Part shown: piece by piece, positions 7,668-64,000 of the stretch
Layout: each line of letters begins with the position of its first letter
Numbering within the stretch: position 1 is the stretch's first letter
From: an uncultured Acidimicrobiaceae bacterium
GTDB lineage: Bacteria; Actinomycetota; Acidimicrobiia; Acidimicrobiales; Bog-793
Length of the DNA stretch: 64,000 nt
Assembly (NCBI GenBank): GCA_963725355.1
Contig: CAVRYE010000012.1
Coordinates: forward strand, 457,528 to 521,527
Direction of reading: 5' to 3'
Notes under the pieces: generated by a model
Seen by the model: the letters and a program-made list of their open reading frames with translations, nothing else
Database searches by the model: none
What the model was told of the DNA's origin: nothing
Program-made: the position numbers and the translations under genes

Positions 7668-7713
7668 CCCCGTTCGGTTCTGCCCAAGGGCATAGCGCCT
7701 TACAGCCGAGCTC

Positions 7714-7788: not shown

Positions 7789-8219
7789 TTCTAAAGCTGC
7801 AGCAACGACCCGCTGCAGTCAAGGGGCGGTTGAGCTCTCCTGTGGAGAGCGGATCATCCGAGGAGCTGGTGGTGGTCGAGGCTCGTCACCTCGATCGCGT
7901 GGCCTACCTCGGACGTCGCGTTAGCTCCCGTCGATCGGCGGTGCTCGGGGCGCCAGGCCTCACGACACCAACTTGTAAAGTCATTCCCCTTCCCCTGATC
8001 ACCGCTTGCACGGGAGGCATCACTCCCAGTGGCTGTTAGGAGTCGACCTCGGTCGGAGAAGCGAGAGCAGACAAGCGAAGCGAGGGCAGTGTGCGAACCG
8101 CGTTATCTTCAGGTGATCTGCGGCTGAGCCTCCGCCAGCCCCCGTTGAACACTAAAAGCGGTTTTTGGGCCACCGGAGAGGAAGCGTCCAAGGCCACCGG
8201 GGGTAAGAGAAGCGTCGTG

Positions 8220-51441: not shown

Positions 51442-51515
51442 GGGGGCGTAGCTCAGTTGGTAGAGCGCCTGACTGGCAGTCAGGAGGTTCGAGGGTTCGA
51501 GTCCCTTCGCCTCCA
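51442..51515 (+). tRNA. tRNA-Ala(GGC)
   Basis: Cloverleaf: GGGGGCG/CGCCTCC acceptor stem with G3.U70, D-arm AGCTCAGTTGGTAGAGC, anticodon stem CCTGA/TCAGG with GGC, GGTTCGAGT T-loop; CCA not encoded. Confidence 0.97.
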
Positions 51516-51594
51516 CCCGAAAGTCCTGGTCACAGGAGTGTGAGGGTGTGTCGCTTTCCGCTGGGCCGGCGGGAATGTAGCCAACTGTAGCCGC

Positions 51595-51734
51595 ACCGCC
51601 GGCACCGGAGTCCGGAAAGAGAGCTGCTTGCGCTGTTCGTCGAGGACGTCGACTTGAAGGCGCAAGAGAATGAAATCGCGTTTGCCATCGCCGACGGCGG
51701 CCCAGGCGTCGGTCTCGTGCACAAGCCGACCTAG
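51595..51734 (+). pseudogene. Tyrosine integrase remnant next to tRNA-Ala
   Basis: TGVRK / ELLALFVEDVDL (box I, split by a frameshift) followed by IAFAIADGGPGVGLVHKPT and a stop. Confidence 0.55.
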
Positions 51735-52129
51735 GCGCTTCACCGCGAACGGCAGATCACCCGCCCGCGAGATCCATGCCATTTCGCGGCTCGCTAGTCG
51801 CGGCGGCGATCGCTCCGGTGATCAACTGTGGCTACTCGAGTGCGTCGGAGCCCTGTGCCTTGCCGCGTGGTGCGGTGCTCGGACGCTCCTTGTTGTGACG
51901 CCGATGCAAGCCGTCAGCGTAGGTCCTAGACGTGCTCCGAGGTCGGTCCTGCCGCTCACTCCTTCTTCGTGCCTCAACTCCCGAAACAATGTCAAGGCCG
52001 CATGGGAGAATCGAGGATGCGGTGGCCCCGTAGCGTCGACTCCGGACGAGGAAACGAAAGTCGGCACCCAAACGAAATGCACCCTCGGCGTACCGTTCAC
52101 GTCAGGTCGTGAACAAAGAAGGAAGTCAA

Positions 52130-52293
52130 ATGACGCTCGTAGGGGCGTTTTACACTGACACCGACCCGGAGGACCCGGTCTCTATCACGACCAGGCTGAG
52201 TGCCCGTACGGTCAGGAGATCAAACGCAACGGCAACGATCACCTCGGCACGGGCGGCCGCCGTCGCTGTGACTGGTGCACCGCTAACTGGTAG
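52130..52293 (+). CDS. Small His/Cys zinc-binding-like protein with a 2-nt frameshift
   Basis: AAGGAAG RBS; MTLVGAFYTDTDPEDPV, then after removing one CT from GTCTCTAT: YHDQAECPYGQEIKRNGNDHLGTGGRRRCDWCTANW*. Confidence 0.55.
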
Positions 52294-52324
52294 TTGAGCG
52301 CAGCACGGTGGTAGAGATCACATC

Positions 52325-52411
52325 CTGCAAAGTATAGCGAAACAGCGATAGTTTGCAGATACAGAGCACATGTTGTGCTGCAAACAATGTCGATATAGCT
52401 ATATAATGCAG
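52325..52411 (+). promoter_or_regulatory. AbiE promoter/operator: two 34-bp inverted-repeat units plus TATAAT -10
   Basis: CTGCAAA...TTTGCAG (52325-52358) and CTGCAAAC...TGCAG (52378-52411); TATAAT at 52402-52407, 6 nt before the ATG. Confidence 0.7.
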
Positions 52412-52413
52412 GT

Positions 52414-53173
52414 ATGGTACACGTGGCGACCCTCGAACTCCTAGCAAACCTGGCTGAGGACCAGTGGGGCCTTGTCACGCGCCAGCAAGCGGAGGGTGCT
52501 GGTCTGGCGTGGACGACCCTCTCGCGTCAGGCATCCCATGGGTCGGCGCTCGAACGAGTAGCACACGGCGTCTACCGCATTCGGGGATCACCCCCTCCAG
52601 ACCACCTGCAACTTCGAGCAGCCTGGATGCAACTCGCACCCGACACGCCGGTATGGGAACGAACACCCAACCAAGGCGTGGTGTCACACCGGTCCGCCGC
52701 TGCTGTCTACGGACTAGGGGACCTTACCGCCGACCGCAACGAGTTCACCCTTCCCACTCGACGTCAGTCCCGTCGATCGGATGTGCGCTTCCATCGAGGG
52801 CACCTAGGTCGCGGAGAATGGGTCAACCTCGGTGGACTCCTGGTCACCCGTCCGGCGCGGATCGCCGCGGACCTACTCGCCGACGGCGAAGAGCCCGATG
52901 CAGTCGCGCCAATCGTCGTACAAGCCCTGAGACAGATAAATGACTACCCCGGCACGGTGGCCGATGCCATCGCGCCGCTTGCCGCAAGGTTCGGACTGCG
53001 AAGACACGACGGTCTCGGTCTGTTTCGGTGGCTCCTTGACCTGGCCCCTGATCCCGACGCGCTCGGAATGGATTACTGAGGCACGCGCCCATATGGACCG
53101 AGCCCGATCCGCGAAAGACGGCGACAAGTTTGCTGAGGAAGCGGGATCGCCATCTGGCGGGCGAGCACAATGA
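52414..53173 (+). CDS. Type IV TA antitoxin AbiEi family (probable frameshift near 53055)
   Basis: LAEDQWGLVTRQQA...LERVAHGVYR wHTH, VVSHRSAA, VTRPARI; the alternative frame (EWITEARAH...) ends in an ATGA overlap with the toxin. Confidence 0.85.
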
Positions 53174-54066
53174 CAGACGAGAAGGCATACGAGACTCCGC
53201 AGGCGCTGCGGCAGGCGGTAACCGCCCGACTGAGAGCGGTCGCCACTCCGCACGGGCGATGGACACTTGCTGAACTTCAGCGCCAGTTCGCCTACGACAG
53301 GCTGCTCGCCCGTTTGTACGTGATCGACAACAGTTGGATCCTCAAAGGAGCCGTCGCGCTGCTAGCGCGGCAAGTCTCGGTTCGTCACTCGGCCGACATC
53401 GACCTCTATCGGAATGCGGAGCGCACGATGGTCGAGCGTGAGTTACGGGCGGGAGCCGAGCTTGACCTTGGAGACTGGTTTCGCTTCGACATAGCCGCCG
53501 GAGAAAACCTGTCAGGTGGCACGGGCGGGACGCGGTACCCGGTGACAGCGTGGATCGGCGCCACTCAGTGGGCGACATTCCACATTGACCTCGTTGGGAC
53601 CGGCGTGCATATGACCGGTGTACCAGACCATGTGCCACCGGTAGCGGAGATTTCGGTGCCAGGAATCGAGCAGCCCGGGTATCGCGCTTACCCACTGGTC
53701 GACCACGTCGCTGACAAGGTCGCGGCCATACTTGAATTCCATCGCGACGGACGGCCATCCACTCGTTTTAGAGATCTCATTGATCTTGTGGCTCTCGTTG
53801 TGGCAATTCGAGTCGGAGCGGCAGAACAGCGCGTCGCGCTCACTTCGGAGATTGAACGCCGCGCTCTCACGTTCCCCGAACAGTTCGGAGTACCGGACCG
53901 TGAGCTATGGGAGGGCGGTTTCGCCCGAGCTGCACGACGCGCCGCCGAGCTGCCAGCGAAAACCCTTGACGACGCACTCGCCATCGTCCGTCCATTTGTG
54001 GATCCGGTGCTGGACGGCACGGCAATCGGCACCTGGGATCCCGAGCTGGGTGCGTGGGTACCTTGA
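53170..54066 (+). CDS. Type IV TA toxin, AbiEii/AbiGii nucleotidyltransferase
   Basis: RQFAYDRLLARL, WILKG, RHSADID, ADKVAA, STRFRDLIDL. Confidence 0.9.
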   Translation: MTDEKAYETPQALRQAVTARLRAVATPHGRWTLAELQRQFAYDRLLARLYVIDNSWILKGAVALLARQVSVRHSADIDLYRNAERTMVERELRAGAELDLGDWFRFDIAAGENLSGGTGGTRYPVTAWIGATQWATFHIDLVGTGVHMTGVPDHVPPVAEISVPGIEQPGYRAYPLVDHVADKVAAILEFHRDGRPSTRFRDLIDLVALVVAIRVGAAEQRVALTSEIERRALTFPEQFGVPDRELWEGGFARAARRAAELPAKTLDDALAIVRPFVDPVLDGTAIGTWDPELGAWVP

Positions 54067-54165
54067 TCGCGACAGCCCGTGACTGTAGTGCTTTCTTGCA
54101 ACGGACACCGATTCTCGTGATAGAAGAGAAGCATCCGCCCGTGTTGGGAGGATGCATGTGTACGC

Positions 54166-55044
54166 ATGCAAGACCTAGCAAACTACGTAGACGTGCGGCC
54201 AGACGACTTCTTCAGCGACGATGAGATTCCGGGTCCCTTCGGCAACGTCGGCCGCCACCTACGTATGGACCTCCTTACTCAGGTGCGCCAGAGGCCCATC
54301 GAAGGGATCGACGACATCGAGATTGCGGTGCCGTTGGCCGCGCTCATCGATGACGAACTGGAGAAGTACGGCACAGACGGCAGTCAGGTGATGTCCGAGG
54401 CGGAGGTGCGCGTCGCTCTCCTCGCGCTGAAGGCGGTCGACGATCGACTTGCCATCACTGACGTTGACGTCCCCTTTCGCGATTTCGGGTCTTTTAGAAC
54501 ATGGTGGACGCGCCACGATGCATACGGCAGTTGGCAGGCGCGCCGCAACCTTCTGCGTGACATCTTCGATCCCCTGCACGACCAGCTAGCCCTCTTGGAG
54601 CAACGGTCTCTCGCTTCGACACTTGTTGATCCTGTCAGCCCTCACAGGCGCACCGGATGGTCGGCCGTCGACACGGAGATCAGCGAAATGCGCCGCCATT
54701 TCCAGGCCGCGCGTACGGCGCAGGACTACCGCAACGTGGGCCTTGATTGCGTCTCGGTCACGGAAACGCTCAGCGCCCAGGCGTACGATGTCGATCGCAA
54801 TCTGCGCGATGGTGAGACCGAGCCTCCGGTTGCCAATACGAAGCAGCGACTAGATCGGTTCGTCGAGGATGCGGCGGCCGGTCCCGACAACGCGGCACTC
54901 CGCAAACTCGCGCGAGCGACGATTGAGTTCGCCCAGCATGTGAAGCACAGCGGAACGCCGACCCGGCGGGAAGCCGGTATCGCTGCAGACAGCGTCATCC
55001 AGCTCGCCAATATTCTTCGTCGTCTCGACGACACCGATCCGTGA
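54166..55044 (+). CDS. Hypothetical defence-island protein with HEPN/Abi-like helical C-terminal domain
   Basis: Helical protein; TGWSAVD...EI, AQHVKH followed by EA...AD resembles HEPN/Abi-C domains; context between AbiE and the Ubl operon. Confidence 0.45.
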   Translation: MQDLANYVDVRPDDFFSDDEIPGPFGNVGRHLRMDLLTQVRQRPIEGIDDIEIAVPLAALIDDELEKYGTDGSQVMSEAEVRVALLALKAVDDRLAITDVDVPFRDFGSFRTWWTRHDAYGSWQARRNLLRDIFDPLHDQLALLEQRSLASTLVDPVSPHRRTGWSAVDTEISEMRRHFQAARTAQDYRNVGLDCVSVTETLSAQAYDVDRNLRDGETEPPVANTKQRLDRFVEDAAAGPDNAALRKLARATIEFAQHVKHSGTPTRREAGIAADSVIQLANILRRLDDTDP

Positions 55045-55254
55045 GGGGACGTGCCCCGTCGTGTATGCGACGCCTGTGTCGTTAGCGAGGTGGCAGTCTC
55101 TACTTGGCTTGTCTCGACAGGTTCACTACCTCCGCGGCCGTCCACATTGTCGGACGTTTGCGAATCCCTGCGATGAGAGTCTCCCAATCTGACACGGCAC
55201 GCAGCCCCATCGTCCTTGATGGTTTCCGCGAGGGCGACGAGTGCCAGCTCCATC

Positions 55255-56319
55255 TCATCTGCAGTTGGGGCAAAGACCGTCCACGAGCAGGTGGACGAGG
55301 ACGCTCTGAAAGCACACATGGCAAGTTGCCCGCGGCATTCGCTCGCGCTCGTCACAGTCGCACTCGTCGCAGCCAGGGCATGGGATCCGATGGCAGCTGT
55401 TGCACGGAAAGCCATGGGCGACCCCGGCCCAGCCGCACCTGCACGTTTGATACCGCGAGGGGGCCCTTCGCCGTTCTGGCTCAGGGAGATGGAGTCGGAC
55501 GGCGCCCCAGAGATCGTTCTCTGCGAAAGCAGCGTAGATCCAACCCCCGATCTGTGTCGCGTGCTCGTAGTACCGCCGCCTATCCGAATCGGTCCGCCGC
55601 GGCCACCAGCTCTCGAGAACTTGTGTTGCTCCAGGCTCGAGTGTGCGAAGCGGGTGAGACATGGGCAGCTGATCGCCTGACCACGGTGCCGGGCTCGCGC
55701 GCCCGGCACGCGAAACGAAGGTCACACGTCCCGTTCCGGCCTTGGCGAGCATCACGAAGCCCTCACAGCCGAGCCGCTCGGCGATCGCGATGGCGCAGAC
55801 CTCTCGAGACGCCTCGGAGGAGTCATAGAGGCGCACGACGGCTGTCCCTGATGCGCGTTCTCTTCCTAGGACGGCATCGACCCGCTCCCGCGGCAGTAGG
55901 AGTCTTCGGGCGACGAGGTCGCACGTGTCTTCTACTAGTCGGCGGGAGTCGGGCTGGTCCGCGAGCCAGTCCCATATGTCATCCTCGGGGTCGAACGAGT
56001 CGACTAGAAAGTGCCCGACCTCGTGAGCAATGGTGAAGTTCTCACGCTTCGAGAAGGGCGTTAGTGCGTAGTGGATGACGCCGTCCTCAATGATTGAGAC
56101 CCCGTCGCACGAACCCTTATCTCCTCTGCTGCGCTCAAGCGCGGCGCTCGGCACGATGCGCAATCCGAGCTGCCTCGTGACCGTCCCCTTTGGGTCGTCA
56201 GCGAAGCGCGCTCGCACATCAACCGTGACTGTCGCGGCAAGTCGGTCCGCCCACTCTCGAGACGAGTGCCTAAGGTTCGGATCGGACCTAACGATCCGGC
56301 GTTCGTGCGATGCACTCAC
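55255..56319 (-). CDS. ImmA/IrrE family metallo-endopeptidase with C-terminal Cys-rich zinc ribbons
   Basis: RENFTIAHEVGH (HExxH), E..CD.VA.RLLLP, ASRE HTH-like segment; 12 Cys in the tail; GTG start overlaps the upstream TGA. Confidence 0.85.
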   Translation of the reverse strand: MSASHERRIVRSDPNLRHSSREWADRLAATVTVDVRARFADDPKGTVTRQLGLRIVPSAALERSRGDKGSCDGVSIIEDGVIHYALTPFSKRENFTIAHEVGHFLVDSFDPEDDIWDWLADQPDSRRLVEDTCDLVARRLLLPRERVDAVLGRERASGTAVVRLYDSSEASREVCAIAIAERLGCEGFVMLAKAGTGRVTFVSRAGRASPAPWSGDQLPMSHPLRTLEPGATQVLESWWPRRTDSDRRRYYEHATQIGGWIYAAFAENDLWGAVRLHLPEPERRRAPSRYQTCRCGWAGVAHGFPCNSCHRIPCPGCDECDCDERERMPRATCHVCFQSVLVHLLVDGLCPNCR

Positions 56320-56999
56320 GACAAACCCTCGAGGACAGCACGCAAGACAGCCATCCATCGGTTCTGATCCGCCTCGCCGGAACTACGCAACTGCACGACC
56401 AACATCCGCGTCCTGACTGCCGCGACGGCCTCCGGGATGTTCCTTCCACGAGTCCTGGCCCAGTGAGAGACCTCCGCTTCGAACTCCGGGGAATTGAGCC
56501 ATGCGACGAAGTCGCCCGCATCGGCGTGTGGGGCGACGCACAGTTCCGAGACGGACGTACCGAGGACGTCGGAGAGTCCGACTGCGAACCCGAGTTCCAC
56601 CTCTGCAGCAGACAGCATCTCGGTCTGAGCCAGCCATTTCGGAGTCGTCTCGAGATCTCTCATTTGGAGCGCCCGGACGAGATCGCTCACCCTCATGCCT
56701 CGCCGCTTCCGCGCCTGACGCAATCGGCCGCCGTCGAGCTGAACCGTCACGCGCGTCCCGCCAAACTCCCGGGGCGCAACGAAGCCGAGGGCGACGGCGA
56801 CGGGATCCTCACCAAGCGGCGGCAGATCCGCTCCGACCCTCCACGAGGCGTCTAGCAGCCCGAAGAGCGCTGATACCTCCTCTCGCATCTCCGGCTCGAC
56901 CTCGTTGAGAACAGGACGAGGTGCCCGTCCGTCGAGGAAGGCTGTGTATGCCTCGATCAGCGCCGAGATCTTTCGCTCGTAGCCTTGATCAGTGCTCAT
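56316..56999 (-). CDS. XRE-like HTH protein with N-terminal anti-sigma-like helical region
   Basis: RLRQARKRRGMRVSDLVRAL...WLAQTE HTH; GGAGGAG RBS; directly downstream of the sigma factor. Confidence 0.6.
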   Translation of the reverse strand: MSTDQGYERKISALIEAYTAFLDGRAPRPVLNEVEPEMREEVSALFGLLDASWRVGADLPPLGEDPVAVALGFVAPREFGGTRVTVQLDGGRLRQARKRRGMRVSDLVRALQMRDLETTPKWLAQTEMLSAAEVELGFAVGLSDVLGTSVSELCVAPHADAGDFVAWLNSPEFEAEVSHWARTRGRNIPEAVAAVRTRMLVVQLRSSGEADQNRWMAVLRAVLEGLS

Positions 57000-57030
57000 C
57001 ACTTCTCCTCCTCCAAGATTCTTCCGCGCT

Positions 57031-57630
57031 TCATCGGTGTAGCGGGCCGACGGTCCTCGCCAGTTTCCTGATCCCGGAGTCGCGCAGTTGACGGACTCGT
57101 GCATCGGTAACGCCGAGATCGCGAGCAACGTCCGCCTGCGTCCTCCCTCGTATGACGTGCTCGCTGATTACGAGCCTCTCTGACTCGTTCAGCTTTTCGA
57201 GTCCGGCCACAGCCTTCTCGTAGAGAAGTTCCAGCTCGACTGCTTCTTCTTCCGCTCCGTCATCGTCGGCGAGTTCGTATGGACTCCCTTCCGGTGGAAG
57301 TGGGTTTACCCGCGACTTCGGTCCGTTGCAGGCGTCGTAGGCGCGCCGCCAAGCGACCTTGACCATCCAGCTACGCAGGCCATCGAGGCTCCTCATTTCT
57401 CTTGGCAAGCCGGAGGTGATCATCTCCAGCATCGCCTGTTGCACGATGTCGGCGACTTGGACGCCGGCAACCGCTGAGTTTTCGCCACGGATGAACCGCG
57501 CCGCGGTGCGGGACATGGGACCGCGGTTCAGCTCGTAGATGGCCTTCCAGTCCGGCGCTCCGGCCTGGATGCTGTCTAAGAGCTGCTTGCCACCCTGGTT
57601 GTAATCCGTGGGTACATCCTTGTCGCCCAT
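57031..57630 (-). CDS. ECF-like sigma-70 family RNA polymerase sigma factor
   Basis: Region 2 (DIVQQAM...LRSWMVKVAWRRAYD) and region 4 (LNESERLVI...RTQADVARDLGVTDARVRQL); GGAGG RBS inside the E1 3' end. Confidence 0.85.
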   Translation of the reverse strand: MGDKDVPTDYNQGGKQLLDSIQAGAPDWKAIYELNRGPMSRTAARFIRGENSAVAGVQVADIVQQAMLEMITSGLPREMRSLDGLRSWMVKVAWRRAYDACNGPKSRVNPLPPEGSPYELADDDGAEEEAVELELLYEKAVAGLEKLNESERLVISEHVIRGRTQADVARDLGVTDARVRQLRDSGIRKLARTVGPLHR

Positions 57631-59075
57631 CGTCGCCTCCACGGTGACCAGCAGACGCAGTGTCCGGAGCCGTCGCGGGCACGGCGCCTAACGGCGCCGA
57701 GGGGAACGCCCGACATGTCGAGGTCGACTCGGCGGTCCACGAGTTCGAGCCCGCGCGCTGCCTTCGCCAGCTCTGAAGCCACGAGCACGCCGGCCATCCA
57801 CGAAACGTACGGGGCGGAGACAGTGGTGGGTGCCGTTCCGTCGACGGGCACAGTCGCTTCGGCGTAGACGCGGTTCCTGAGGTCGTCGAGACGCCGACCT
57901 ACGAGGCTCAGGGCACGCGCCGCATGGACCTTGCCTTGCGCCGCGACTGCTGCCAGGTCGTCGGCGTCCAGCACGGCCCCCTCGAGTTCGAGTTCGGCGA
58001 CGCGAACCACTGGCAGACCGACCATGTTTGCAAGGGCCTGCAGTCGCGTCATCGGCGGAGCCAGGCTGACGAAGTCGCAGTATGGGCAAGCCCACTCGTC
58101 GAGCGGGTGCTCCCGCTGGATGTGAAGCGCGAGACCGTCGATCCCGACCGAAAGCGTCGTTCGGGCAAGCACGTCGGCCACATCGAGCCGGCTGTCGACG
58201 CGGTCGACCGACGACACGACGATCCCGTCGAACCCGGGATCCGGTTGGTTGCGAACCCAATCGGCAACCGCACCCACGTGGCCCTTGGCCTGCCATCCGT
58301 GGTGCCGGAGAAGGTCCGCGAGCCAGTCCGCCTTTGGGCCGGATTCGCGGCCGGTCGACGCGGCATAGCGGTAGGGGTTACGTGAGGGGTCGTAGGAGTC
58401 GGGGTCGACGATCCACGCGAAGCCGCATGTGGCCGGATCACAAACGACGAGTCCGGCACTGCTCGAGCCCACCGACCCCGCACCGAGGAGCGCGACGGTT
58501 AGACCGCGCACATCCATCCCAGCTAGATCGGGTGCGGGTGCAAGGCAGTAGTCGATGAGGTTCCAGACGAGGGTGCCGCCAGTCCGAACGTGCATCATGG
58601 CGAGCTTGCCCAGGGCGATCTTCATGACCTCGCTCGCAACGAGCGCGGCTGCGGCGTGGACCCCGAGGCCGTGTTCCGCGACATCGAGGGGCTGGGGTGA
58701 GTCTCCCTGGCGTGCGGTCCAGTCGTTCCCGCCGATCCAAATGTCGGCGCCGGAGACGCTTAGACCGGCTCCGATCACAAGATCCTGCCCGGCTGGCACG
58801 GCGGGTTCCACACGGCTCGGCGCAATGCGGCTGGGCAGCTCAAGGAGGCTCTCCGCTCCCCAGGGGTTCGGCCCCATCGGCGCGTCCCCGTCGATCACGG
58901 CGTGCGGGTGGACGCGGACGAGGAGCGAGTAGAGGCCCCCAATCGCCGTCGCGGCCGCTGGGTGCAGACCCGACCCGACTCGGATAACAGGACGGAGACG
59001 GTCGAGCGCCTCAAGCACTGGAGCACCCTCCGCGTTCAGGACCCCGGGGCTGAGGGCGAGGCGTGGATCGTTCAC
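57576..59075 (-). CDS. E1-like (ThiF) ubiquitin-like activating enzyme, BilD-like architecture
   Basis: N-terminal inactive adenylation-like half, GAGSVG, DPD...NPYRY, VD...R, zinc CPYC and CVC, helical insert after CxxC. Confidence 0.85.
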   Translation of the reverse strand: MNDPRLALSPGVLNAEGAPVLEALDRLRPVIRVGSGLHPAAATAIGGLYSLLVRVHPHAVIDGDAPMGPNPWGAESLLELPSRIAPSRVEPAVPAGQDLVIGAGLSVSGADIWIGGNDWTARQGDSPQPLDVAEHGLGVHAAAALVASEVMKIALGKLAMMHVRTGGTLVWNLIDYCLAPAPDLAGMDVRGLTVALLGAGSVGSSSAGLVVCDPATCGFAWIVDPDSYDPSRNPYRYAASTGRESGPKADWLADLLRHHGWQAKGHVGAVADWVRNQPDPGFDGIVVSSVDRVDSRLDVADVLARTTLSVGIDGLALHIQREHPLDEWACPYCDFVSLAPPMTRLQALANMVGLPVVRVAELELEGAVLDADDLAAVAAQGKVHAARALSLVGRRLDDLRNRVYAEATVPVDGTAPTTVSAPYVSWMAGVLVASELAKAARGLELVDRRVDLDMSGVPLGAVRRRARDGSGHCVCWSPWRRRWATRMYPRITTRVASSS

Positions 59076-59527
59076 TGGACCCTTACCCGCCCCTCGCGGT
59101 TGGGTCCCGTCTCAAGGAAGGACCAGGCACCCGACCGCAGCACGTAGACGGCGCACAGGTCGAGGCCGTGACGAAGGCCGAGACCAAAGAACGGCGCCAC
59201 GATCGAAAGCGCGCCTTCGTAAGTAAGCGCCGGATTGGCGTCGTCGATCTCGCTGTGGAACGGCTCCATCGGGTGACTGTGGATCCGGGCCACGTAGCGT
59301 TCGTCGGGGGCTAGTGCGGCCGCGAGTTGCAGTTTCCCGGCCCGACTGACCTCGACCCGGCAGTGAGGCGCGGCAGCGGCAGTCTGATCCGGCACGATGA
59401 CGCGCCGAGCGATGCCATCGGGTCCTGCGGTGATCATCGCGGTTCCCTCGAAGCCGTGCGAGCCACGGTCCTCGAAGAAGCGGCGAGCTTCGTCGAGGAT
59501 GGAGTTCGGGATGGAGATCGGGCTCAT
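59072..59527 (-). CDS. JAB/JAMM metallo-isopeptidase (BilC-like)
   Basis: N-terminal EG, HSHPMEPFHSEID (HxH-x5-S-x2-D) JAMM motif, LSIVAP. Confidence 0.9.
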   Translation of the reverse strand: MSPISIPNSILDEARRFFEDRGSHGFEGTAMITAGPDGIARRVIVPDQTAAAAPHCRVEVSRAGKLQLAAALAPDERYVARIHSHPMEPFHSEIDDANPALTYEGALSIVAPFFGLGLRHGLDLCAVYVLRSGAWSFLETGPNREGRVRVQ

Positions 59528-59940
59528 CGTCCTGCTTTTTTCAATAGGTGGTCAAGGAGCTGGGGAAGTCGGAGCCGTGTCCTATAGATGTCCCAGCGAT
59601 CGTCGAGATGCGACGGGTGGCAGTGGTACTCGAAGGTGCCACGAATGCAGACGAAGCCCCGGCCGAGTATCGGATGGATGGAGTGGAATAGGCTCCCAGG
59701 CCATAGCGGCTGGGGCGCGATACCGCCGTCGAGCATTACCACTGCCACTCGAAAGGGCTCGGCGTCGAACTTGCGACCGCCCAAGCGGATGATTGCGTCG
59801 GCACCGAGGTTTCCTTCGATGCGGCAGATGATGTCAGTGCCGACGATGTCGAGGCCTCGGATGCGGTGTTCGTACCTTGCTCTGGCAACACGGACCTCGG
59901 CCTCGAGAAGCTCTTCGAGGAGGGTCGGGTGCAGCGTCAC
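59524..59940 (-). CDS. E2-like conjugating enzyme (BilB / CEHH-type)
   Basis: FDAEP, HP, FVCIRGTFEYHCHPSH..D.W with conserved C-E-H-H. Confidence 0.8.
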   Translation of the reverse strand: MTLHPTLLEELLEAEVRVARARYEHRIRGLDIVGTDIICRIEGNLGADAIIRLGGRKFDAEPFRVAVVMLDGGIAPQPLWPGSLFHSIHPILGRGFVCIRGTFEYHCHPSHLDDRWDIYRTRLRLPQLLDHLLKKAGR

Positions 59941-60242
59941 CCGTCCACCTGGGGAGCTTCGGGGATGAGGTGGAGAAAATCGCCGTTGACGATCCGGTAG
60001 TCGTCGAGTCGGCTCGTGTCCGTGAGGTCCTCCGCCCGGCCTTCGCGAACCAATGCCAGGCCGTAGTCGCCTGGCGCGAGCTCGCTGCGCTCGACGAAGT
60101 AGCGGATCGACTGAAAGACAGCCTGGGTGACGAGTTCATCGAGCTTGAAGGTGAACGAGTGGCTCGCGCCGGCAGGGGTGCGGACTGTAACCGCGACTTC
60201 GGTTTGGTGGTCTTCCGGCTTCTCGATCAGGGGGTTTGACAT
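59937..60242 (-). CDS. Ubiquitin-like beta-grasp protein (BilA-like)
   Basis: VTVRTPAG...LTDTSRLDDYRIVNGDFLHL ubiquitin-like pattern; C-terminus QVDG; GAGGAG RBS; first gene of the E2-JAB-E1 operon. Confidence 0.82.
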   Translation of the reverse strand: MSNPLIEKPEDHQTEVAVTVRTPAGASHSFTFKLDELVTQAVFQSIRYFVERSELAPGDYGLALVREGRAEDLTDTSRLDDYRIVNGDFLHLIPEAPQVDG

Positions 60243-60569
60243 AGGACTGCTCCTCTCGGGGACCGCCCGATGGCCGAATGGCGTTCCTAATTGAGCAGTC
60301 GTGCCACAAACGCCAAACCGAAGGGGTTCTCCGATCTGCCCAGATTGGCACCGTCATCGAAGTCGAAAGGCACTATCCACCTCGAAAGTGCCGGCAGCAC
60401 TTACTCGGCGACCTCCAAGAGAACGCGGGGACGTCGCCGGAGAATTGCGCAGGCCGGGACGAGTGGCACGAGTGGTTCAGATAGGTCAAAACGGCTCGCC
60501 CGCACGATCCTGCGTCGGGCACTGGGACAAGCTGAGCGCAGGGGCTACGTCGCTCAACAACGTCATGGC

Positions 60570-60960
60570 GCTCACGGATGCCGCTGCGGTCAAGGTGGAC
60601 GACCGGCCGGTACTGAAGCAGCTGTTCGACAACTTGCACGACGACCGGCTATTGCCGTTATACGCGGTCGCGGTCCACACCGGTTTACGTCAGGGGGAGT
60701 TACTCGCGCTCAGGTGGTCCGATGTCGACCTCGCGGCCGGCACTGCAACGGTCACCGGCACATTCGATCTCAAGATCAGGCAACGCACCGATCCGAAGAC
60801 CGACAAGTCCCGCCGCAACGTGCCACTTGCCCGCGGGCCTTGGAGGCTCTCCAGGTTCACCGGGTCCGCCAGAACCTCGAAGGGACACAGGGCAACGAAG
60901 ATCTGGTCTTCACGAGTGCGCGGGCACGGCATTGTACGACTCGAACATCCGCAAGCACTG
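60570..60960 (+). pseudogene. Tyrosine integrase fragment
   Basis: LYAVAVHTGLRQGELLALRWSDVDL, PKTDKSRRNVPL, DLVFTS in a shifted frame; no HxLRH/Y C-terminus; boundaries approximate. Confidence 0.75.
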
Positions 60961-61052
60961 GCACAGGTGAGCGCCAACCTCGGACTGTCCTCGATGCACC
61001 TTTTGTTGGGGTGCGTCCTAGACTTTGTCGCGTTGCTTTAAATAAGAGGACG

Positions 61053-61076
61053 ACACAACAAAGTAATTTATTGTGT
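61053..61076. promoter_or_regulatory. AT-rich inverted repeat upstream of fic (possible autoregulatory operator)
   Basis: ACACAACAAA-GTAA-TTTATTGTGT, 9/10 arm match, 14 nt before the ATG. Confidence 0.5.
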
Positions 61077-61090
61077 TACGGTTATATTTT

Positions 61091-62098
61091 ATGGAGCACG
61101 ACACTTTCCGACGAGGCCGTCCACCTCGCCGGCTGGTTTACCTACGTCTGGAAGAGGCGATCGCTGAGCTGTGCGAGCGCATGGGGGGACTGCCGTCGCC
61201 TGACGAGGCCGAAGGCATCTGGACCTCGATCTGGTATCAGGAGGCGCACCACTCCACAGCGATCGAAGGAAACACACTCGTTATCCAACAGGTCGAAACA
61301 CTCTTGGCCGAAGGCCGCGCTGTCGGGAACAAGGAACTCCGGGAGTACATGGAGGTGACCGGTTATGCCGAAGCCGCCAGGTGGGTCTACGGTCAGGCGC
61401 TCGATCCAGGCGACTGGGTCTCCGAAGGTCTGCTTACGCTGACCGAGGTTCGACACGTGCATGCGCTAGCCCTCGGCCCTGCGTGGAACGTGGCGCCGCA
61501 TCCGAACGCGACGACGAGCGAAAATCCGGGCAGCTTTCGCGAGCACGACATCCAACCATTCCCTGGAGGGACCACGCCACCGGCGTGGATCGAGGTCGAT
61601 GCAGCTATGACGGACTGGATCCGGTCGCTTTCGTTGATCGCCTCAGCCGATAATCCAGTCGAGACGATTGCTGCAGCGCACGCTGAATTCGAAAGGATCC
61701 ACCCCTTTCTTGACGGCAACGGACGAACGGGACGCCTTTTGCTCAACCTGCTGCTAGTCCGTTTGGGCTATCCACCCGCCGTCATCTATAGGAGGGACCG
61801 AGGCAGGTACCTCGGTGCGTTGCGAAAGGCCGATGCCGGGGATCCCGGGCCGCTCGGGGAGCTCATAGCGCGGGCTGTCACCGACAACCTCTATCGCTTC
61901 GTAGTGCCCGCCGTCGCAGGACCGCACCGATTGGTGCCGCTTGCCACTCTGGCGACGCCGAACCAGAGCGTTTTCGCTCTTCGCGCGGCAGTCGAGCGCG
62001 GGCGCCTAAAGGCCCAGAAGGGACCGGACGGTCAGTGGCGCAGCACGAAGGCTTGGGTCGACGAATACCTAGCGAGCAAGTACGAGCGCCGAGGCTGA
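61091..62098 (+). CDS. Fic family protein with C-terminal HTH
   Basis: HPFLDGNGRTGR catalytic motif, N-terminal inhibitory STAIEGN, C-terminal LRAAVERGRLKA...WR MerR/excisionase-like HTH. Confidence 0.92.
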   Translation: MEHDTFRRGRPPRRLVYLRLEEAIAELCERMGGLPSPDEAEGIWTSIWYQEAHHSTAIEGNTLVIQQVETLLAEGRAVGNKELREYMEVTGYAEAARWVYGQALDPGDWVSEGLLTLTEVRHVHALALGPAWNVAPHPNATTSENPGSFREHDIQPFPGGTTPPAWIEVDAAMTDWIRSLSLIASADNPVETIAAAHAEFERIHPFLDGNGRTGRLLLNLLLVRLGYPPAVIYRRDRGRYLGALRKADAGDPGPLGELIARAVTDNLYRFVVPAVAGPHRLVPLATLATPNQSVFALRAAVERGRLKAQKGPDGQWRSTKAWVDEYLASKYERRG

Positions 62099-63509
62099 GG
62101 GGACGTCCCATGAGTTGGTGTAAATCGCGCAGAGGGTCCACCACGTAGCGGACCACCGGAGTGAATCTCGACGTGTCCCTGACAAGACACGACAAGGAGA
62201 TCACTCCGATGGCCCAACATGATTTTGATCCCTATGCGCTTCTCGACGCGCTCCGCGCCGGCGGCGACGTCGATCTGATTCGAGCGAGCGTCGAGCTCGT
62301 TCTCCAGGCCCTCATCGAGGCCGAGGTGTCCGGCGTGATCGGTGCCGAACCCTATGAGCGCTCCGATGAGCGCACGAACTACCGAAACGGGCGCCGGCCC
62401 CGCCTGTTGTCGACCAAGGCCGGCGATGTCGAGCTGAAGATCCCGAAGCTGCGCTCGGGCTCGTTCTTTCCTCAGATCTTGGAGCGCCGCAGAAGGATCG
62501 ACCGGGCGCTGTACGCGGTGGTGATGGAGGCCTACGTGCACGGCGTGTCGACGCGAAAGGTCGACGACCTGGTCGAGGCGCTCGGTGCCGCCTCGGGGAT
62601 CTCGAAGTCCGAGGTCAGCAGGATCTGTTCTGAGCTCGACAAGGAGATGGAGGCCTTCCGGACCCGCCGTCTTGACCACGTCGCCTTCCCCTATCTGTTC
62701 TGTGACGCCACCTATGTAAAGGGGCGACTGCGCGGTCGCGTAGTCAGCCGGGCCGTGGTGGTCGTCACCGGCGTGACCGCCGAGGGCAACCGCGAGGTGC
62801 TCGGCTGCGACGTCGGCGACTCCGAGGACGGCACCTTTTGGACGGCGTTCCTCCGGGGGCTTCGCGAGCGGGGACTCTCGGGTGTCCGACTCGTCGTCTC
62901 CGATCAGCACCTCGGACTGAAAGAGGCGATCGGGAAGGTCTTCATCGGGGCCGCCTGGCAACGCTGCCGGGTGCACTTTTTACGCAACGCCCTCTCCGGT
63001 GTCCCGAAGGCGAAGACCCAGATGGTCGCCGCCGCCATCCGGACGATCTTCGCCCAGCCTGGGGCAGAGCACGTGGCCCAGCAGCTCGACGTAGTCGCCG
63101 ACACGCTCAGCTTCACTCTCCCCGGGGTCGCGCAGCTCCTGCTCGACGCGAAAGAGGACCTCGTCGCGTTCTCGAGCTTCCCGATCGCGCACTGGCCCAA
63201 GCTGTGGTCGACGAACCCCCTCGAGCGCGTGAACGCTGAGATCAAGCGCCGCACCAACGTCGTCGGCATCTTCCCCAACGACGCCGCGGTGCTCCGTCTC
63301 GTGACCGCGGTGCTGGTCGAACAGCACGATGAATGGGAGGTCGCCGAGCGCCGCTACCTCTCCGAGGAGTCGATGGTTCTCATCGACCAGGCCGTCAACG
63401 ACGAGCTCAGCGCGGAGGGGGTGTCATTGGCGATCATGAAGTGACAAACTGCACGCGCGTCGAGAGCGCTTCGGCTCAGCCGATTTACACCTCTCCGCGG
63501 GACGCGATC
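62099..63509 (+). mobile_element. IS256 family insertion sequence
   Basis: 29-bp imperfect terminal IRs (GGGGACGTCCC...GGTGTAAATCG / CGATTTACACC...GGGACGCGATC) and 8-bp target duplication GAGGCTGA (62091-62098, 63510-63517). Confidence 0.93.
62209..63444 (+). CDS. IS256 family transposase
   Basis: RNG.R, IPKLR.GSFFP, GVSTRKV, DATY, VSDQH.GL, WQRCRVHF, STNPLER.N.EIKRR. Confidence 0.95.
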   Translation: MAQHDFDPYALLDALRAGGDVDLIRASVELVLQALIEAEVSGVIGAEPYERSDERTNYRNGRRPRLLSTKAGDVELKIPKLRSGSFFPQILERRRRIDRALYAVVMEAYVHGVSTRKVDDLVEALGAASGISKSEVSRICSELDKEMEAFRTRRLDHVAFPYLFCDATYVKGRLRGRVVSRAVVVVTGVTAEGNREVLGCDVGDSEDGTFWTAFLRGLRERGLSGVRLVVSDQHLGLKEAIGKVFIGAAWQRCRVHFLRNALSGVPKAKTQMVAAAIRTIFAQPGAEHVAQQLDVVADTLSFTLPGVAQLLLDAKEDLVAFSSFPIAHWPKLWSTNPLERVNAEIKRRTNVVGIFPNDAAVLRLVTAVLVEQHDEWEVAERRYLSEESMVLIDQAVNDELSAEGVSLAIMK

Positions 63510-63804
63510 GAGGCTGACCTTGCGACGGTCGCGAGCCGAATCTTCCGCAAACGCTAGCGGTCGTCAATAGACCGAGCCACTGTTGGGCTTACGGTGTGGA
63601 CGCGATGGACGATTCCGTGGACAGAAGACCACATCACGGGCTTCAAAGTCTGCTGGAGAGAACTCGGCGGACTCAAAAACAGCCATGCCGCGGGGTCCAG
63701 CTGGCGACGACCTCGAGGGCGAGAGCCCGTCCCGACTTGATCATAAGGTATATATACAGGAAGATGTGACGAAGATGGTTAATCCTCCCTGTCAGGCTTC
63801 AGAC

Positions 63805-64000
63805 GTGGACCCAGAACAGCGCGCCGAGCTGTCCGAGATCGCCAAACAGCTGGCCGAGATCGCCCGCAGCGGACGAGTCCTGCCGGGCACGATCTCAGAG
63901 CGGCGTACTCGATGCGGGAGGCCCAACTGCGCCTGTCATGGCGATCCACCTAGGCTGCACGGTCCTTACTGGCACTGGACGCGAAAGGTTGCCGCGAAGA
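63805..64000 (+). CDS. DUF6788-like protein (transposase-associated), 3' truncated by window
   Basis: LPGTISERRTRCGRPNCACHGDPPRLHGPYWHWTRKV read directly from the sequence. Confidence 0.7.
   Translation, partial: MDPEQRAELSEIAKQLAEIARSGRVLPGTISERRTRCGRPNCACHGDPPRLHGPYWHWTRKVAAK

What the first reader, a model, noticed from the sequence alone, without database searches (positions are those of the whole stretch)
55255..60242. Ubl-E2-JAB-E1 conjugation cassette in one operon with a sigma factor, an HTH/anti-sigma-like protein and an IrrE peptidase
Seen: seven co-directional genes. Ubl/E2, E2/JAB, JAB/E1 and HTH/peptidase overlap by (A/G)TGA. The sigma RBS and start lie inside the E1 3' end, and only 31 nt separate sigma from HTH, so this looks like one translational unit. 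Known: Ubl-E2-JAB-E1 is the gene order of Bil (bacterial ISG15-like) antiphage systems, and ImmA/IrrE/CapP peptidases cleave HTH partners after damage signals. Inference: I do not know of a Bil cassette with its own sigma factor. The peptidase may cut the HTH/anti-sigma to release sigma and induce the cassette. Alternatively, Ubl conjugation may act on the sigma module itself, making this a ubiquitin-like signalling circuit rather than only a virion-tagging defence.
Basis: partly seen in the sequence, partly recalled or inferred. Interest (0 to 1): 0.88.

Follow-up and report, generated by a model that had tools for sequence, protein, structure and literature searches.

The report
Ubiquitin-like defence operon with sigma switch
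A bacterial ubiquitin-like protein-tagging cassette of the antiphage Bil type sits in one seven-gene operon with its own sigma factor, a repressor-like protein and a protease, and this arrangement recurs in many soil bacteria, so it is probably a built-in on-switch.

Summary

The first four genes are a diverged Type II BilABCD (CEHH/6C) module. The E1 family profile matches E. aridi BilD at 1.1e-26, and the E2 keeps the CEHH motif.

The sigma trio is not a chance neighbour. Among 88 non-redundant relatives of the E1:
- sigma follows E1 in 65 of 82 assessable loci;
- the full trio follows in 39 of 60.

No other flanking gene is conserved. A bipartite ECF-like motif (TTTCAY-N15-CGTCTA) lies upstream of Ubl in 27 of 50 sigma-bearing loci. 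In the window itself the match is weak.

Canonical sigma-less CapH/CapP pairs with the same peptidase family have a 150-aa HTH protein that lacks the N-terminal ~70 residues seen here.

Best reading: a CapH/CapP-type damage-gated switch rebuilt around a dedicated sigma factor.

Unexpectedly, this E1 clade lacks the catalytic cysteine of BilD. An invariant Tyr-Ala stands at that place.

I rate it a new variant of a known kind, of moderate to high interest.

The parts
60361..60387 (-). Candidate sigma-dependent promoter: TTTCGA-N14-TTCGACT, about 120 nt upstream of the Ubl ATG. Weak in the window itself.
   Evidence: It scores 10.7 bits against a PWM built from relatives, with 0 of 200 shuffles of the upstream region reaching that score. 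However, the whole window holds 26 hits of 9 bits or more. It resembles the L012-clade site TTTCGA-N13-TTCGACTA. The exact pattern occurs 3 times in the 4.3-Mb genome, against 1 for the control. That pattern was derived from this site, so this count is circular.
59937..60242 (-). Ubl (BilA-like), 101 aa, ending in ...VDG with no C-terminal tail.
   Evidence: Weak YukD and ubiquitin hits. It is conserved as the first gene in the relatives. Of 67 distinct family C-termini, 51 end in Gly, 46 of them as VDG. Contigs from RNA libraries cover 59782-60240.
59524..59940 (-). E2 (BilB-like, CEHH type), 138 aa, with Cys98, Glu104, His106 and His111.
   Evidence: It aligns to E. aridi E2(BilB) 8tyz_C across the CEHH motif with the same spacing as C138/E144/H146/H151. 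Of 77 distinct relatives, 62 keep HP...C...H.
59072..59527 (-). JAB/JAMM deconjugase (BilC-like), 151 aa.
   Evidence: Prok-JAB 2.3e-5, PADLOC BilC 1.5e-7 and DUB(BilC) 8tyx_B 7.9e-5. The motif HxHx6-8SxxD is present in 82 of 82 distinct relatives.
57576..59075 (-). E1 (BilD-like), 499 aa. It has GAGSVGS, Arg236 and the zinc cysteines C330/C333/C473/C475. There is no cysteine at the BilD C417 position; Tyr404-Ala405 stand there instead.
   Evidence: The family profile A1 matches E1(BilD) 8tyz_A at 1.1e-26 over positions 22-488. Invariant columns are listed. There is no Cys between residues 334 and 472. A contig from an RNA library covers 58158-58410.
57031..57630 (-). ECF-type (group 4) sigma factor, 199 aa. 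Its start lies inside the E1 3' end.
   Evidence: TIGR02937 3.1e-16 and Sigma70_r4 2.9e-9. Profile A2 matches M. tuberculosis SigL 6dv9_F at 2.2e-13 over its full length. It lies directly after E1 in 65 of 82 assessable non-redundant loci.
56316..56999 (-). Three-part HTH protein, 227 aa. The parts are an N-terminal extension (~1-58), the near-invariant motif P..(D/E)DP(V/I)A..LG(L/F)V (60-74), an XRE HTH (~88-155) and a C-terminal domain (~160-227). It is the proposed CapH-like repressor or anti-sigma.
   Evidence: Alignment A3. Only the HTH part matches PDB or Pfam. Full-length relatives occur in only 2 of 401 phylum genomes, both carrying Bil. Sigma-less CapH-like partners of the same peptidase family lack the N-terminal part.
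55255..56319 (-). CapP/IrrE-family zinc metallopeptidase, 354 aa. It has H99-E100-xx-H103 plus E130, a conserved RGxGGWCDGxS loop (C71) and a C-terminal module of about 10 conserved cysteines (293-353).
   Evidence: Peptidase_M78 2.4e-5, PADLOC capP 1.8e-13, and IrrE 8slm and 3dte at about 2e-7. Alignment A4 gives the invariant columns. Contigs from RNA libraries cover 55636-55848 and 55872-56085.

Best explanation
This is a self-contained, horizontally mobile seven-gene operon.

Genes 1-4 (Ubl, CEHH-type E2, JAB, E1) are a diverged Type II BilABCD ubiquitin-like conjugation module. By family membership its presumed role is antiphage or stress defence.

Genes 5-7 are its built-in expression switch. 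They encode a dedicated ECF-type sigma factor, a CapH-like XRE-HTH protein with an extra N-terminal extension, and a CapP/IrrE-type zinc peptidase.

Proposed mechanism, with inferred steps marked:
1. The operon is read from an ECF-type promoter upstream of Ubl that only its own sigma recognises. The motif is shown in relatives; recognition by this sigma is inferred.
2. At rest the HTH protein keeps sigma inactive through its N-terminal extension, and it may also bind DNA near the promoter (inferred).
3. A damage or infection cue activates the peptidase (inferred). The cue would be single-stranded DNA, by analogy with CapP.
4. The peptidase cleaves the HTH protein (inferred).
5. Freed sigma then drives a positive-feedback burst of the whole operon, conjugation enzymes included.

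The Ubl is made with a free C-terminal Gly, so JAB probably acts as a deconjugase rather than a processing enzyme.

This E1 lacks the catalytic cysteine of BilD. Ubl may therefore pass from the adenylate directly to E2 Cys98, or go by way of the invariant Tyr404 (inferred).
For: Module identity:
- E1 profile matches BilD at 1.1e-26, with the zinc cysteines and adenylation Arg conserved.
- The E2 keeps the CEHH motif.
- JAB matches BilC.

Conservation (113 loci collapsed to 88 non-redundant groups):
- sigma lies directly after E1 in 65 of 82 groups with at least 650 nt downstream;
- sigma plus HTH in 53 of 70 groups with at least 1400 nt;
- the full trio in 39 of 60 groups with at least 2500 nt.

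Hosts include Acidimicrobiia, Amycolatopsis, Saccharothrix, Pedococcus, Nocardioides, Pseudonocardia, a Rhodococcus opacus plasmid and a Chloroflexi MAG. No other flanking gene is shared by more than 3 loci.

Promoter:
- TTTC[AG]N-N14-16-CG[TA]CTN lies within 250 nt upstream of Ubl in 30 of 61 non-redundant upstream regions. Shuffles give 6 of 6100.
- There are 35 hits in all in 1.6 Mb.
- By class, the motif is in 27 of 50 sigma-bearing loci and 2 of 10 without an adjacent sigma. One of those two has a broken E1 and the other has sigma placed convergently.
- All PWM hits of 20 bits or more in 1.23 Mb are these sites.

Switch parts:
- The peptidase keeps H-E-xx-H plus E with CapP spacing.
- The same peptidase family forms canonical divergent CapH/CapP pairs beside a SMODS/CD-NTase gene and beside a ThiF-type E1. 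In both, the HTH partner is about 150 aa, lacks the N-terminal extension, and no sigma is present.
- Variants without the peptidase keep the N-terminal part and HTH but lose the C-terminal domain.
- Distances of the HTH N-terminal part track sigma (partial r 0.32, 0 of 2000 permutations) more than the peptidase (0.10) or E2 (-0.04). This is a weak hint only.

One transcription unit: four 4-nt overlaps, the sigma start inside E1, no sigma70-like promoter, and terminator-like sites at the shuffle level.

Expression: identical contigs on Ubl/E2, E1 and the peptidase gene in 3 metatranscriptome runs of 1 study.
Against: - No anti-sigma domain was detected in the HTH protein by Pfam or PDB profiles. 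Every source names its relatives merely HTH, XRE or hypothetical.
- The window's own upstream region has only a weak motif match, 10.7 bits, within the window's background.
- Twenty-three of 50 sigma-bearing loci lack the strict motif.
- The motif was defined from these data.
- The mirror-tree signal is not specific: sigma-peptidase partial r is 0.60 and HTH-domain-peptidase is 0.65.
- Antiphage activity of Type II Bil, and of this clade, is not shown. The preprint reports non-specific conjugation in a heterologous host.
- The missing E1 cysteine raises the question whether this module conjugates in the BilD manner at all.
- The RNA contigs do not bridge E1-sigma, and RNA libraries can hold DNA.
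Confidence: 0.6

Rival explanations
1. Same parts, but with no sigma sequestration. The HTH protein is an ordinary CapH-like DNA-binding repressor that sits on the operon promoter. Sigma is only a dedicated positive-feedback amplifier, made once the peptidase has removed the repressor. The N-terminal extension serves something else, such as oligomerisation or peptidase docking.
For: The only recognisable domain is an XRE HTH. CapH works this way (Lau et al. preprint, passages). Some loci carry an inverted repeat overlapping the -10 element; L014 has a perfect CGTCTACCTGGTAGACG. Overall, 10 of 33 sites have at least a 5-of-6 repeat, against a shuffle mean of 5.7, and 22 of 500 shuffles reach that count.
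Against: The N-terminal extension occurs only with sigma in what I examined. Its distances track sigma best, though weakly. The inverted-repeat signal is marginal and is absent from most sites. A repressor alone would not require a private sigma.
Confidence: 0.25
2. The Ubl system acts on its own regulatory module or on host proteins as a signalling or stress circuit. An example would be Ubl conjugation to sigma, to the HTH protein or to RNA polymerase. In this reading it is not a defence that tags phage proteins.
For: The enzymes and the regulators are translationally coupled, and they are the only conserved genes of the unit. Bub and related operons may be general stress pathways (PMC13373217, discussion passage). 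CapP-type regulators answer to DNA damage, not only to phage.
Against: There is no direct evidence. The cassette lies in a low-GC island next to tRNA-Ala, together with AbiE, Fic, an integrase fragment and an IS. Its flanks vary between hosts. Both features are typical of defence cargo. The only Bil system with a known target modifies a phage tail fibre; that is a Type I system, cited.
Confidence: 0.1
3. The association is a chance or recent juxtaposition of a Bil cassette with an unrelated sigma/HTH/peptidase module.
For: None remains after the neighbourhood survey.
Against: The trio follows E1 in 39 of 60 assessable non-redundant loci from different orders and from two further phyla. Full-length HTH relatives occur only with Bil, in 2 of 401 genomes.
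Confidence: 0.01

Closest known systems
Type II BilABCD (CEHH/6C) operons, e.g. Ensifer aridi TW10 (Chambers et al., preprint 10.1101/2023.09.26.559546; PDB 8tyx, 8tyz)
   Same: The gene order is Ubl-E2-JAB-E1. The E1 is homologous over its full length (1.1e-26) with the same zinc-site cysteines and adenylation Arg. The E2 has the same C-x5-E-x-H-x4-H motif. The DUB is of the JAB type, and there is a single small Ubl.
   Different: The E1 has Ala405 where BilD has the catalytic Cys417, and no Cys anywhere in that insertion. The E2 is much shorter, 138 aa against 204 aa. The Ubl is made with a free terminal Gly. The regulators lie downstream, are co-directional and include a sigma factor, whereas the published CapH/CapP-linked operons (25 of 162) have them upstream and divergent in all but one case. 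PADLOC models hit only BilC and BilD, and only weakly.
CapH/CapP (and DdrO/IrrE, ImmR/ImmA) protease-repressor switches (Lau et al., preprint 10.1101/2022.04.27.489752)
   Same: An M78 zinc peptidase with HExxH plus Glu at CapP spacing is paired with an XRE-HTH protein that has a C-terminal domain. The same peptidase family also forms canonical divergent pairs beside a CD-NTase gene and beside a ThiF-type E1. The paper notes 24 CBASS systems with a sigma70-family sigma beside capH/capP.
   Different: The HTH protein has an extra ~70-residue N-terminal part with a near-invariant DDPVA..LGLV motif. The peptidase carries a cysteine-rich C-terminal module. The trio lies at the 3' end of the regulated operon. 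The promoter is ECF-like rather than a repressed housekeeping promoter. No mechanism for the sigma-containing form is given in the passages I read, and Table S1 could not be opened.
ECF sigma/anti-sigma control of defence islands: DdvS/DdvA of Myxococcus xanthus (PMC11506125; search listing and abstract only)
   Same: A dedicated ECF sigma with a cognate negative partner controls expression of an antiphage locus.
   Different: DdvA is a transmembrane anti-sigma. Here the partner is cytoplasmic, HTH-bearing and paired with a cytoplasmic IrrE-type peptidase. The cargo is a Ubl system, not CBASS/CRISPR.
Bub operons (Ye et al., preprint 10.1101/2024.11.21.623953)
   Same: It is a bacterial Ubl pathway whose E1 lacks a catalytic cysteine and uses an invariant tyrosine. 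It is often linked to CapH+CapP, in 168 of 544 operons.
   Different: Bub E2 uses serine and its peptidase is the DUF6527 serine protease. Here the E2 keeps its Cys and the peptidase is JAB. The Tyr here sits in the CYS-domain insertion, not in the crossover loop. A catalytic role for Tyr404 is my speculation.

Membership tests
Type II BilABCD (CEHH/6C) | Gene order Ubl-E2-DUB-E1 in one operon | tested here: met
   Seen. The same order holds in the relatives.
Type II BilABCD (CEHH/6C) | E1 homologous to BilD, with the adenylation Arg and a four-Cys zinc site | tested here: met
   Profile A1 matches 8tyz_A at 1.1e-26 over positions 22-488. Invariant R236, C330, C333, C473 and C475 correspond to R246, C340, C343, C491 and C493.
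Type II BilABCD (CEHH/6C) | E1 catalytic cysteine in the CYS-domain insertion (C417 in E. aridi) | tested here: not met
   C417 aligns to the invariant Ala405. P0004 has no Cys between residues 334 and 472. Among 62 distinct relatives' insertions, 40 have no Cys, 21 have one and 1 has two. ORFs that failed my zinc-motif pattern were dropped.
Type II BilABCD (CEHH/6C) | E2 with the catalytic Cys in the CEHH motif | tested here: met
   C98, E104, H106 and H111 have the spacing of C138, E144, H146 and H151. The Cys and distal His are kept in 62 of 77 distinct relatives.
Type II BilABCD (CEHH/6C) | JAB/JAMM deubiquitinase | tested here: met
   Supported. The motif is present in 82 of 82 distinct relatives.
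Type II BilABCD (CEHH/6C) | Ubl with a beta-grasp fold and a reactive C-terminal Gly | tested here: inconclusive
   The protein ends in Gly, as do 51 of 67 distinct relatives. There are only weak YukD and ubiquitin hits. The fold could not be predicted.
Type II BilABCD (CEHH/6C) | Ubl-target conjugation and antiphage protection | not testable with these tools
   This needs biochemistry and phage challenge.
CapH/CapP regulator pair | CapP: M78 zinc peptidase with HExxH plus a downstream Glu | tested here: met
   H99, E100, H103 and E130 are invariant, against H96, E97, H100 and E129 in CapP. PADLOC capP scores 1.8e-13.
CapH/CapP regulator pair | CapH: small XRE-HTH repressor with a C-terminal dimerisation domain that CapP cuts | tested here: inconclusive
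   An HTH is present. A C-terminal domain is present and is shared with the 150-aa canonical partners. Dimerisation and cleavage were not testable. An extra N-terminal part is present.
CapH/CapP regulator pair | Placed upstream of and divergent from the regulated operon, sharing its promoter region | tested here: not met
   Here the pair is downstream and co-directional, as in 39 of 60 relatives.
CapH/CapP regulator pair | Activation of the peptidase by single-stranded DNA | not testable with these tools
   This needs an in vitro assay.
ECF sigma / anti-sigma pair | Sigma with regions 2 and 4 only | tested here: met
   TIGR02937 covers residues 31-192. The profile matches SigL over its full length at 2.2e-13.
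ECF sigma / anti-sigma pair | Partner with a recognisable anti-sigma domain | tested here: not met
   The N-terminal ~75 residues have no Pfam or PDB-sequence match.
ECF sigma / anti-sigma pair | Physical binding of the partner to sigma | not testable with these tools
ECF sigma / anti-sigma pair | Autoregulated ECF-type promoter in front of the operon | tested here: inconclusive
   A strong conserved motif is present in 27 of 50 sigma-bearing relatives. The window's own site is weak. No transcription start data were available.

The most novel reading that the evidence does not exclude
This is a third, distinct type of Bil system with two departures from what is described.

1. Its expression is gated by a three-component cytoplasmic switch. 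A CapP/IrrE-type peptidase acts as the releasing protease for a CapH-derived anti-sigma factor, freeing a private ECF sigma that fires the operon. This would be a fusion of the protease-repressor logic with the sigma/anti-sigma logic, and I found it described nowhere.

2. Its E1 has given up the catalytic cysteine. It either hands the Ubl-adenylate directly to the E2 cysteine or uses the invariant Tyr404 as an oxyester intermediate. That would be a hybrid between the Bil and Bub chemistries.
Probability: 0.3. Interest if true: 0.8.

Novelty: new variant of a known kind. Interest (0 to 1): 0.64.

Why it matters
How costly defence systems are kept silent and then switched on is an open question. 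Three regulator families are known for such operons: CapW/BrxR, CapH/CapP and CapK/CapS.

A CapH/CapP pair rebuilt around a dedicated sigma factor would add a fourth logic, with built-in positive feedback and promoter insulation from the host. This arrangement dominates a whole clade of Bil-like operons in soil Actinomycetota and in Chloroflexota. It may also explain the 24 CBASS systems with an unexplained sigma factor.

The cysteine-less E1 with an invariant Tyr-Ala at the catalytic position gives a natural test of how much of the E1 thioester step is dispensable in ubiquitin-like chemistry.

The sigma/promoter pair could also serve as an orthogonal, damage-inducible expression part for actinobacteria.

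Tried and rejected
- The protein-atlas search for P0006

As a result there is no fold, co-fold or fold search for any of the seven proteins.

Searches that found nothing or little:
- The single-sequence PDB search with the E1 found nothing. The profile search did.
- PADLOC gave no hit for Ubl, E2, sigma or HTH.
- Pfam found nothing in the C-terminal extensions of the long HTH variants that lack a peptidase.
- There was no match for the E1 in PLSDB plasmids or for its relatives in IMG/VR viral contigs. I draw nothing from these two blanks.

Promoter work:
- The proximal GGAAC-N17-CGGTC (60261-60287), which I first took for an ECF promoter, has no counterpart in relatives. I dropped it.
- The PWM from Actinomycetes-type sites does not lift the window's own site above the window background.
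- The inverted repeat over the -10 element is marginal.

Mirror-tree partial correlations are significant for almost every pair within the trio, so they do not discriminate well.

RNA evidence:
- It covers only 7-10% of sampled words in 3 runs of one study.
- No contig covers sigma, HTH, the E1-sigma junction or anything upstream of 60240.
- These gaps are not evidence of anything.

Supplementary tables could not be opened. These are Lau et al. Table S1 and Chambers et al. Supplementary Table 1. They may list loci of this kind, including the single exception with non-divergent capH/capP.

The motif hit at window 7539 (+) was not followed up beyond listing ORFs.

Full report
**1. What is in the window**

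The minus strand of 55255-60242 holds seven consecutive ORFs:
- Ubl 59937-60242 (101 aa)
- E2 59524-59940 (138 aa)
- JAB 59072-59527 (151 aa)
- E1 57576-59075 (499 aa)
- sigma 57031-57630 (199 aa)
- HTH protein 56316-56999 (227 aa)
- peptidase 55255-56319 (354 aa)

The sigma ATG, with a GGAGG five bases upstream, lies 55 nt inside the E1 reading frame. Sigma and HTH are 31 nt apart.

The simple scan finds no sigma70-type promoter in 54900-60500. It finds 2 terminator-like sites, where shuffles give 2.5.

The cassette sits in a stretch of lower G+C, about 0.61-0.64 against 0.65-0.67 in the flank. This stretch begins at a tRNA-Ala gene (51442-51517). It also holds an AbiEi/AbiEii pair, an integrase fragment, a Fic gene and a Mutator-family transposase. 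That is the look of an integrated island carrying defence cargo.

**2. The first four genes are a diverged Type II Bil module**

As single sequences they are barely recognisable:
- Prok-JAB 2.3e-5, PADLOC BilC 1.5e-7, BilD 6.5e-4;
- Ubl and E2 only at 0.005-0.09.

A profile of 23 relatives of the E1 (A1) matches the solved E1(BilD) of Ensifer aridi. The E-value is 1.1e-26 over positions 22-488 of 495. The invariant R236, C330, C333, C473 and C475 fall on the adenylation Arg246 and zinc ligands C340, C343, C491 and C493 that the authors describe (Chambers et al. preprint, passages).

The E2 aligns to E2(BilB) over the CEHH motif with identical spacing. C98, E104, H106 and H111 correspond to C138, E144, H146 and H151. 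JAB matches DUB(BilC) at 7.9e-5.

According to that preprint, CEHH/6C operons are what is now called Type II BilABCD.

**3. One defining feature is not met**

BilD's catalytic Cys417 aligns to Ala405 of an invariant Tyr404-Ala405 pair. The window's E1 has no cysteine at all between residues 334 and 472.

Among 62 distinct relatives for which my pattern found both zinc motifs:
- 40 have no cysteine in this insertion;
- 21 have one, and in 15 of these it lies 26-28 residues before the YA(E/Q/D)A motif;
- 1 has two.

ORFs whose second zinc motif did not fit the pattern were left out of this count.

Other features of the module:
- The E2 cysteine and distal histidine are kept in 62 of 77 distinct relatives.
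- The JAMM motif is kept in 82 of 82.
- The Ubl ends in Gly with no tail in 51 of 67 distinct C-termini, 46 of them as VDG.

Bub operons give a precedent for a cysteine-less E1 that uses an invariant tyrosine (Ye et al. preprint, passages). Whether Tyr404 plays that part here is speculation.

**4. The sigma trio belongs to the operon**

The E1 family is rare. It was found in 4 of 400 other genomes sampled from the phylum.

I fetched 33 loci from species genomes and 80 from metagenomes. I scanned their six-frame ORFs with HMMs iterated from the window's seven proteins. After collapsing 113 loci to 88 groups by E1 similarity, the counts are:

| What follows E1 | Groups with it | Assessable groups | Downstream sequence required |
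|---|---|---|---|
| sigma directly after E1 | 65 | 82 | at least 650 nt |
| sigma plus HTH | 53 | 70 | at least 1400 nt |
| full trio | 39 | 60 | at least 2500 nt |

Among the same 60 groups:
- 6 have sigma plus a longer HTH protein and no peptidase;
- 1 has sigma with the HTH gene further off;
- 14 have no adjacent sigma. This class includes loci with a broken E1 and one frameshifted assembly.

Carriers with the full order include Acidimicrobiia MAGs, three Amycolatopsis, Saccharothrix, Actinosynnema, Pedococcus, Allobranchiibius, Nocardioides, Pseudonocardia, plasmid pHG203 of Rhodococcus opacus and a Chloroflexi MAG.

No flanking ORF family within 3 kb on either side is shared by more than 3 loci. 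So the seven genes are the whole conserved unit, and it moves between contexts.

Full-length relatives of the HTH protein were found in 2 of 401 genomes of the phylum sample. Both carry this Bil form.

**5. A conserved ECF-like promoter in front of Ubl**

Reading the upstream regions showed a bipartite element, TTTCAY-N15-CGTCTA. Its -10 part ends about 40-50 nt before the Ubl start.

With a PWM from ten sites, every hit of 20 bits or more in 1.23 Mb (both strands of all loci then held) is one of these upstream sites. For the seeds this is circular. The metagenome loci fetched afterwards show the same element, for example L049, L075-L079, L082 and L085.

With the pattern TTTC[AG]N-N14-16-CG[TA]CTN:
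- 30 of 61 non-redundant upstream regions have a hit, against 6 of 6100 shuffles;
- by class, the hits are 27 of 50 with sigma after E1, 2 of 10 without, and 1 unclassifiable;
- of the two without an adjacent sigma, one has a broken E1 and the other has sigma and HTH placed convergently.

The four-gene relatives L003 and L004 come from unpublished genomes G048 and G001. They instead show a TTGACA-type element with a palindrome and a divergent HTH gene.

The form -35 ..TCAC / -10 CGTC is what I recall for several ECF groups. That comparison comes from memory, not from a call.

The window's own region carries TTTCGA-N14-TTCGACT at 60361-60387. It resembles the site of the L012 clade but scores only 10.7 bits, within the window's background.

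**6. What the trio is**

*Sigma.* The profile matches ECF sigmas over their whole length, M. tuberculosis SigL at 2.2e-13.

*Peptidase.*
- It keeps H99-E100-x-x-H103 and E130. CapP has H96, E97, H100 and E129.
- It has a conserved RGxGGWCDGxS loop.
- It has about ten conserved cysteines in its last 60 residues.
- It matches IrrE structures at about 2e-7.

*HTH protein.* Only the XRE HTH is recognisable. Its alignment (A3) shows:
- an N-terminal part of about 58 residues;
- a near-invariant P..(D/E)DP(V/I)A..LG(L/F)V motif;
- the HTH;
- a C-terminal domain.

The telling comparison comes from two other genomes of the phylum sample. In both, a 150-151-aa HTH protein is followed by a peptidase of the same family (2.5e-70 and 8.6e-38). 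That HTH protein matches only profile positions 73-203, that is the HTH plus the C-terminal domain. In one genome the pair is divergent from a SMODS/CD-NTase gene. In the other it is divergent from a small ORF plus a ThiF-type E1. No sigma matched my sigma HMM in the 3.4-kb loci around the two pairs.

These are canonical CapH/CapP arrangements. The N-terminal part therefore appears together with sigma.

Conversely, the variants that lack the peptidase keep the N-terminal part and HTH but lose the C-terminal domain.

Mirror-tree partial correlations controlling for E1 distances (34 loci) point the same way, but only weakly:
- N-terminal part with sigma, 0.32;
- with the peptidase, 0.10;
- with E2, -0.04.

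All pairs within the trio correlate; sigma-peptidase is 0.60.

**7. How it most likely works**

Shown:
- the gene order and its conservation;
- the family assignments and intact catalytic motifs;
- the promoter-like motif in relatives.

Inferred:
- sigma reads that promoter;
- the HTH protein holds sigma in check, through its N-terminal part, through DNA binding, or both;
- the peptidase, switched on by a damage or infection cue, cleaves the HTH protein;
- the freed sigma amplifies the whole operon.

CapP is activated by single-stranded DNA and cuts CapH in the first helix of its C-terminal domain (Lau et al. preprint, passages).

The main rival keeps all the parts but makes the HTH protein a plain repressor and sigma a mere amplifier. 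I cannot separate the two without binding data.

**8. Expression**

Three metatranscriptome runs of one study hold contigs 99-100% identical to the window:
- over Ubl/E2 (59782-60240), with one contig bridging the Ubl/E2 junction;
- over E1 (58158-58410);
- over the peptidase gene (55636-55848 and 55872-56085).

This is compatible with transcription in situ. It does not show one transcript, and DNA carry-over is not excluded.

**9. What is known and what is new**

In print:
- Type II Bil with CapH/CapP in 25 of 162 operons, upstream and divergent in all but one case;
- one sentence that 24 CBASS systems encode a sigma70-family sigma beside capH/capP;
- a transmembrane anti-sigma/ECF pair controlling a CBASS-CRISPR island (listing);
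- CapK/CapS as a third regulator family.

Full-text searches for BilABCD with 'sigma factor' gave 0 papers. CapH+CapP+'sigma factor'+Bil since 2023 gave only the CapK/CapS work and unrelated reviews. The supplementary tables, which could hold such loci, were closed.

New here:
- the sigma-containing trio is the dominant, co-directional 3' part of a whole Bil clade;
- its promoter motif;
- the N-terminal extension that goes with sigma;
- the cysteine-less E1.

**10. Verdict**

I rate it a new variant of a known kind, with interest 0.64.

Noticed in passing
window 57576-59075 (E1), residues 334-472: The E1 has no cysteine in the insertion that holds BilD's catalytic Cys417. An invariant Tyr404-Ala405 stands at that place. 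Some relatives, such as the L012 clade, have one Cys 26-28 residues earlier, but the window's protein has Val there.
   Followed up: partly
L022 8693-9370; L088 1223-1990; L111 3765-4532: In these loci Ubl and E2 lie in one open reading frame, an apparent Ubl-E2 fusion. The same loci have sigma plus a long HTH protein and no peptidase.
   Followed up: no
L054, L057 and L065 (same group): This is another arrangement. A peptidase relative and a weakly matching 348-aa HTH-family ORF lie upstream of Ubl and co-directional with it. A second M78 peptidase (Pfam 1.6e-17) lies after E1, and there is no sigma.
   Followed up: partly
L063 and L080: Sigma and a long HTH protein are present downstream of E1 but on the opposite strand, so they are convergent. 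L080 still has the promoter-like motif upstream of Ubl.
   Followed up: no
L014 about 8750-8766, just after the -35/-10 motif: A perfect 17-bp palindrome, CGTCTACCTGGTAGACG, overlaps the -10 element. Imperfect versions occur in L016, L017, L036 and L037. Over all 33 sites the signal is marginal.
   Followed up: partly
window 51442-55044 and 60301-63999: The island context is tRNA-Ala, AbiEi (52414-53079) and AbiEii (53170-54066), an unknown 292-aa ORF (54166-55044), an integrase fragment (60301-61041), Fic (61073-62098), a Mutator-family transposase (62161-63444) and a DUF6788 ORF running off the window end.
   Followed up: partly
window 7539-7572 (+): A 22.7-bit match to the promoter PWM (TTTCAG-N16-CGTCTC) is the best in the window. 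It lies within overlapping ORFs (7191-7667 on the minus strand, 7503-8039 on the plus strand). It may be a site for another ECF sigma or a chance match.
   Followed up: no
window 55255-55440 (peptidase C-terminus): A module of about 60 residues holds about ten conserved cysteines (CxC, CxxC, CxxCxxCxC, CxxC, CxxC). I saw no mention of such a module in the CapP or IrrE passages I read. It could be a zinc-ribbon sensor or a nucleic-acid-binding part.
   Followed up: partly
L039 and L040 (metagenome contigs): Two metagenome contigs carry an E1 100% identical to the window's, with the same upstream region. So the same strain or element occurs in other samples.
   Followed up: no
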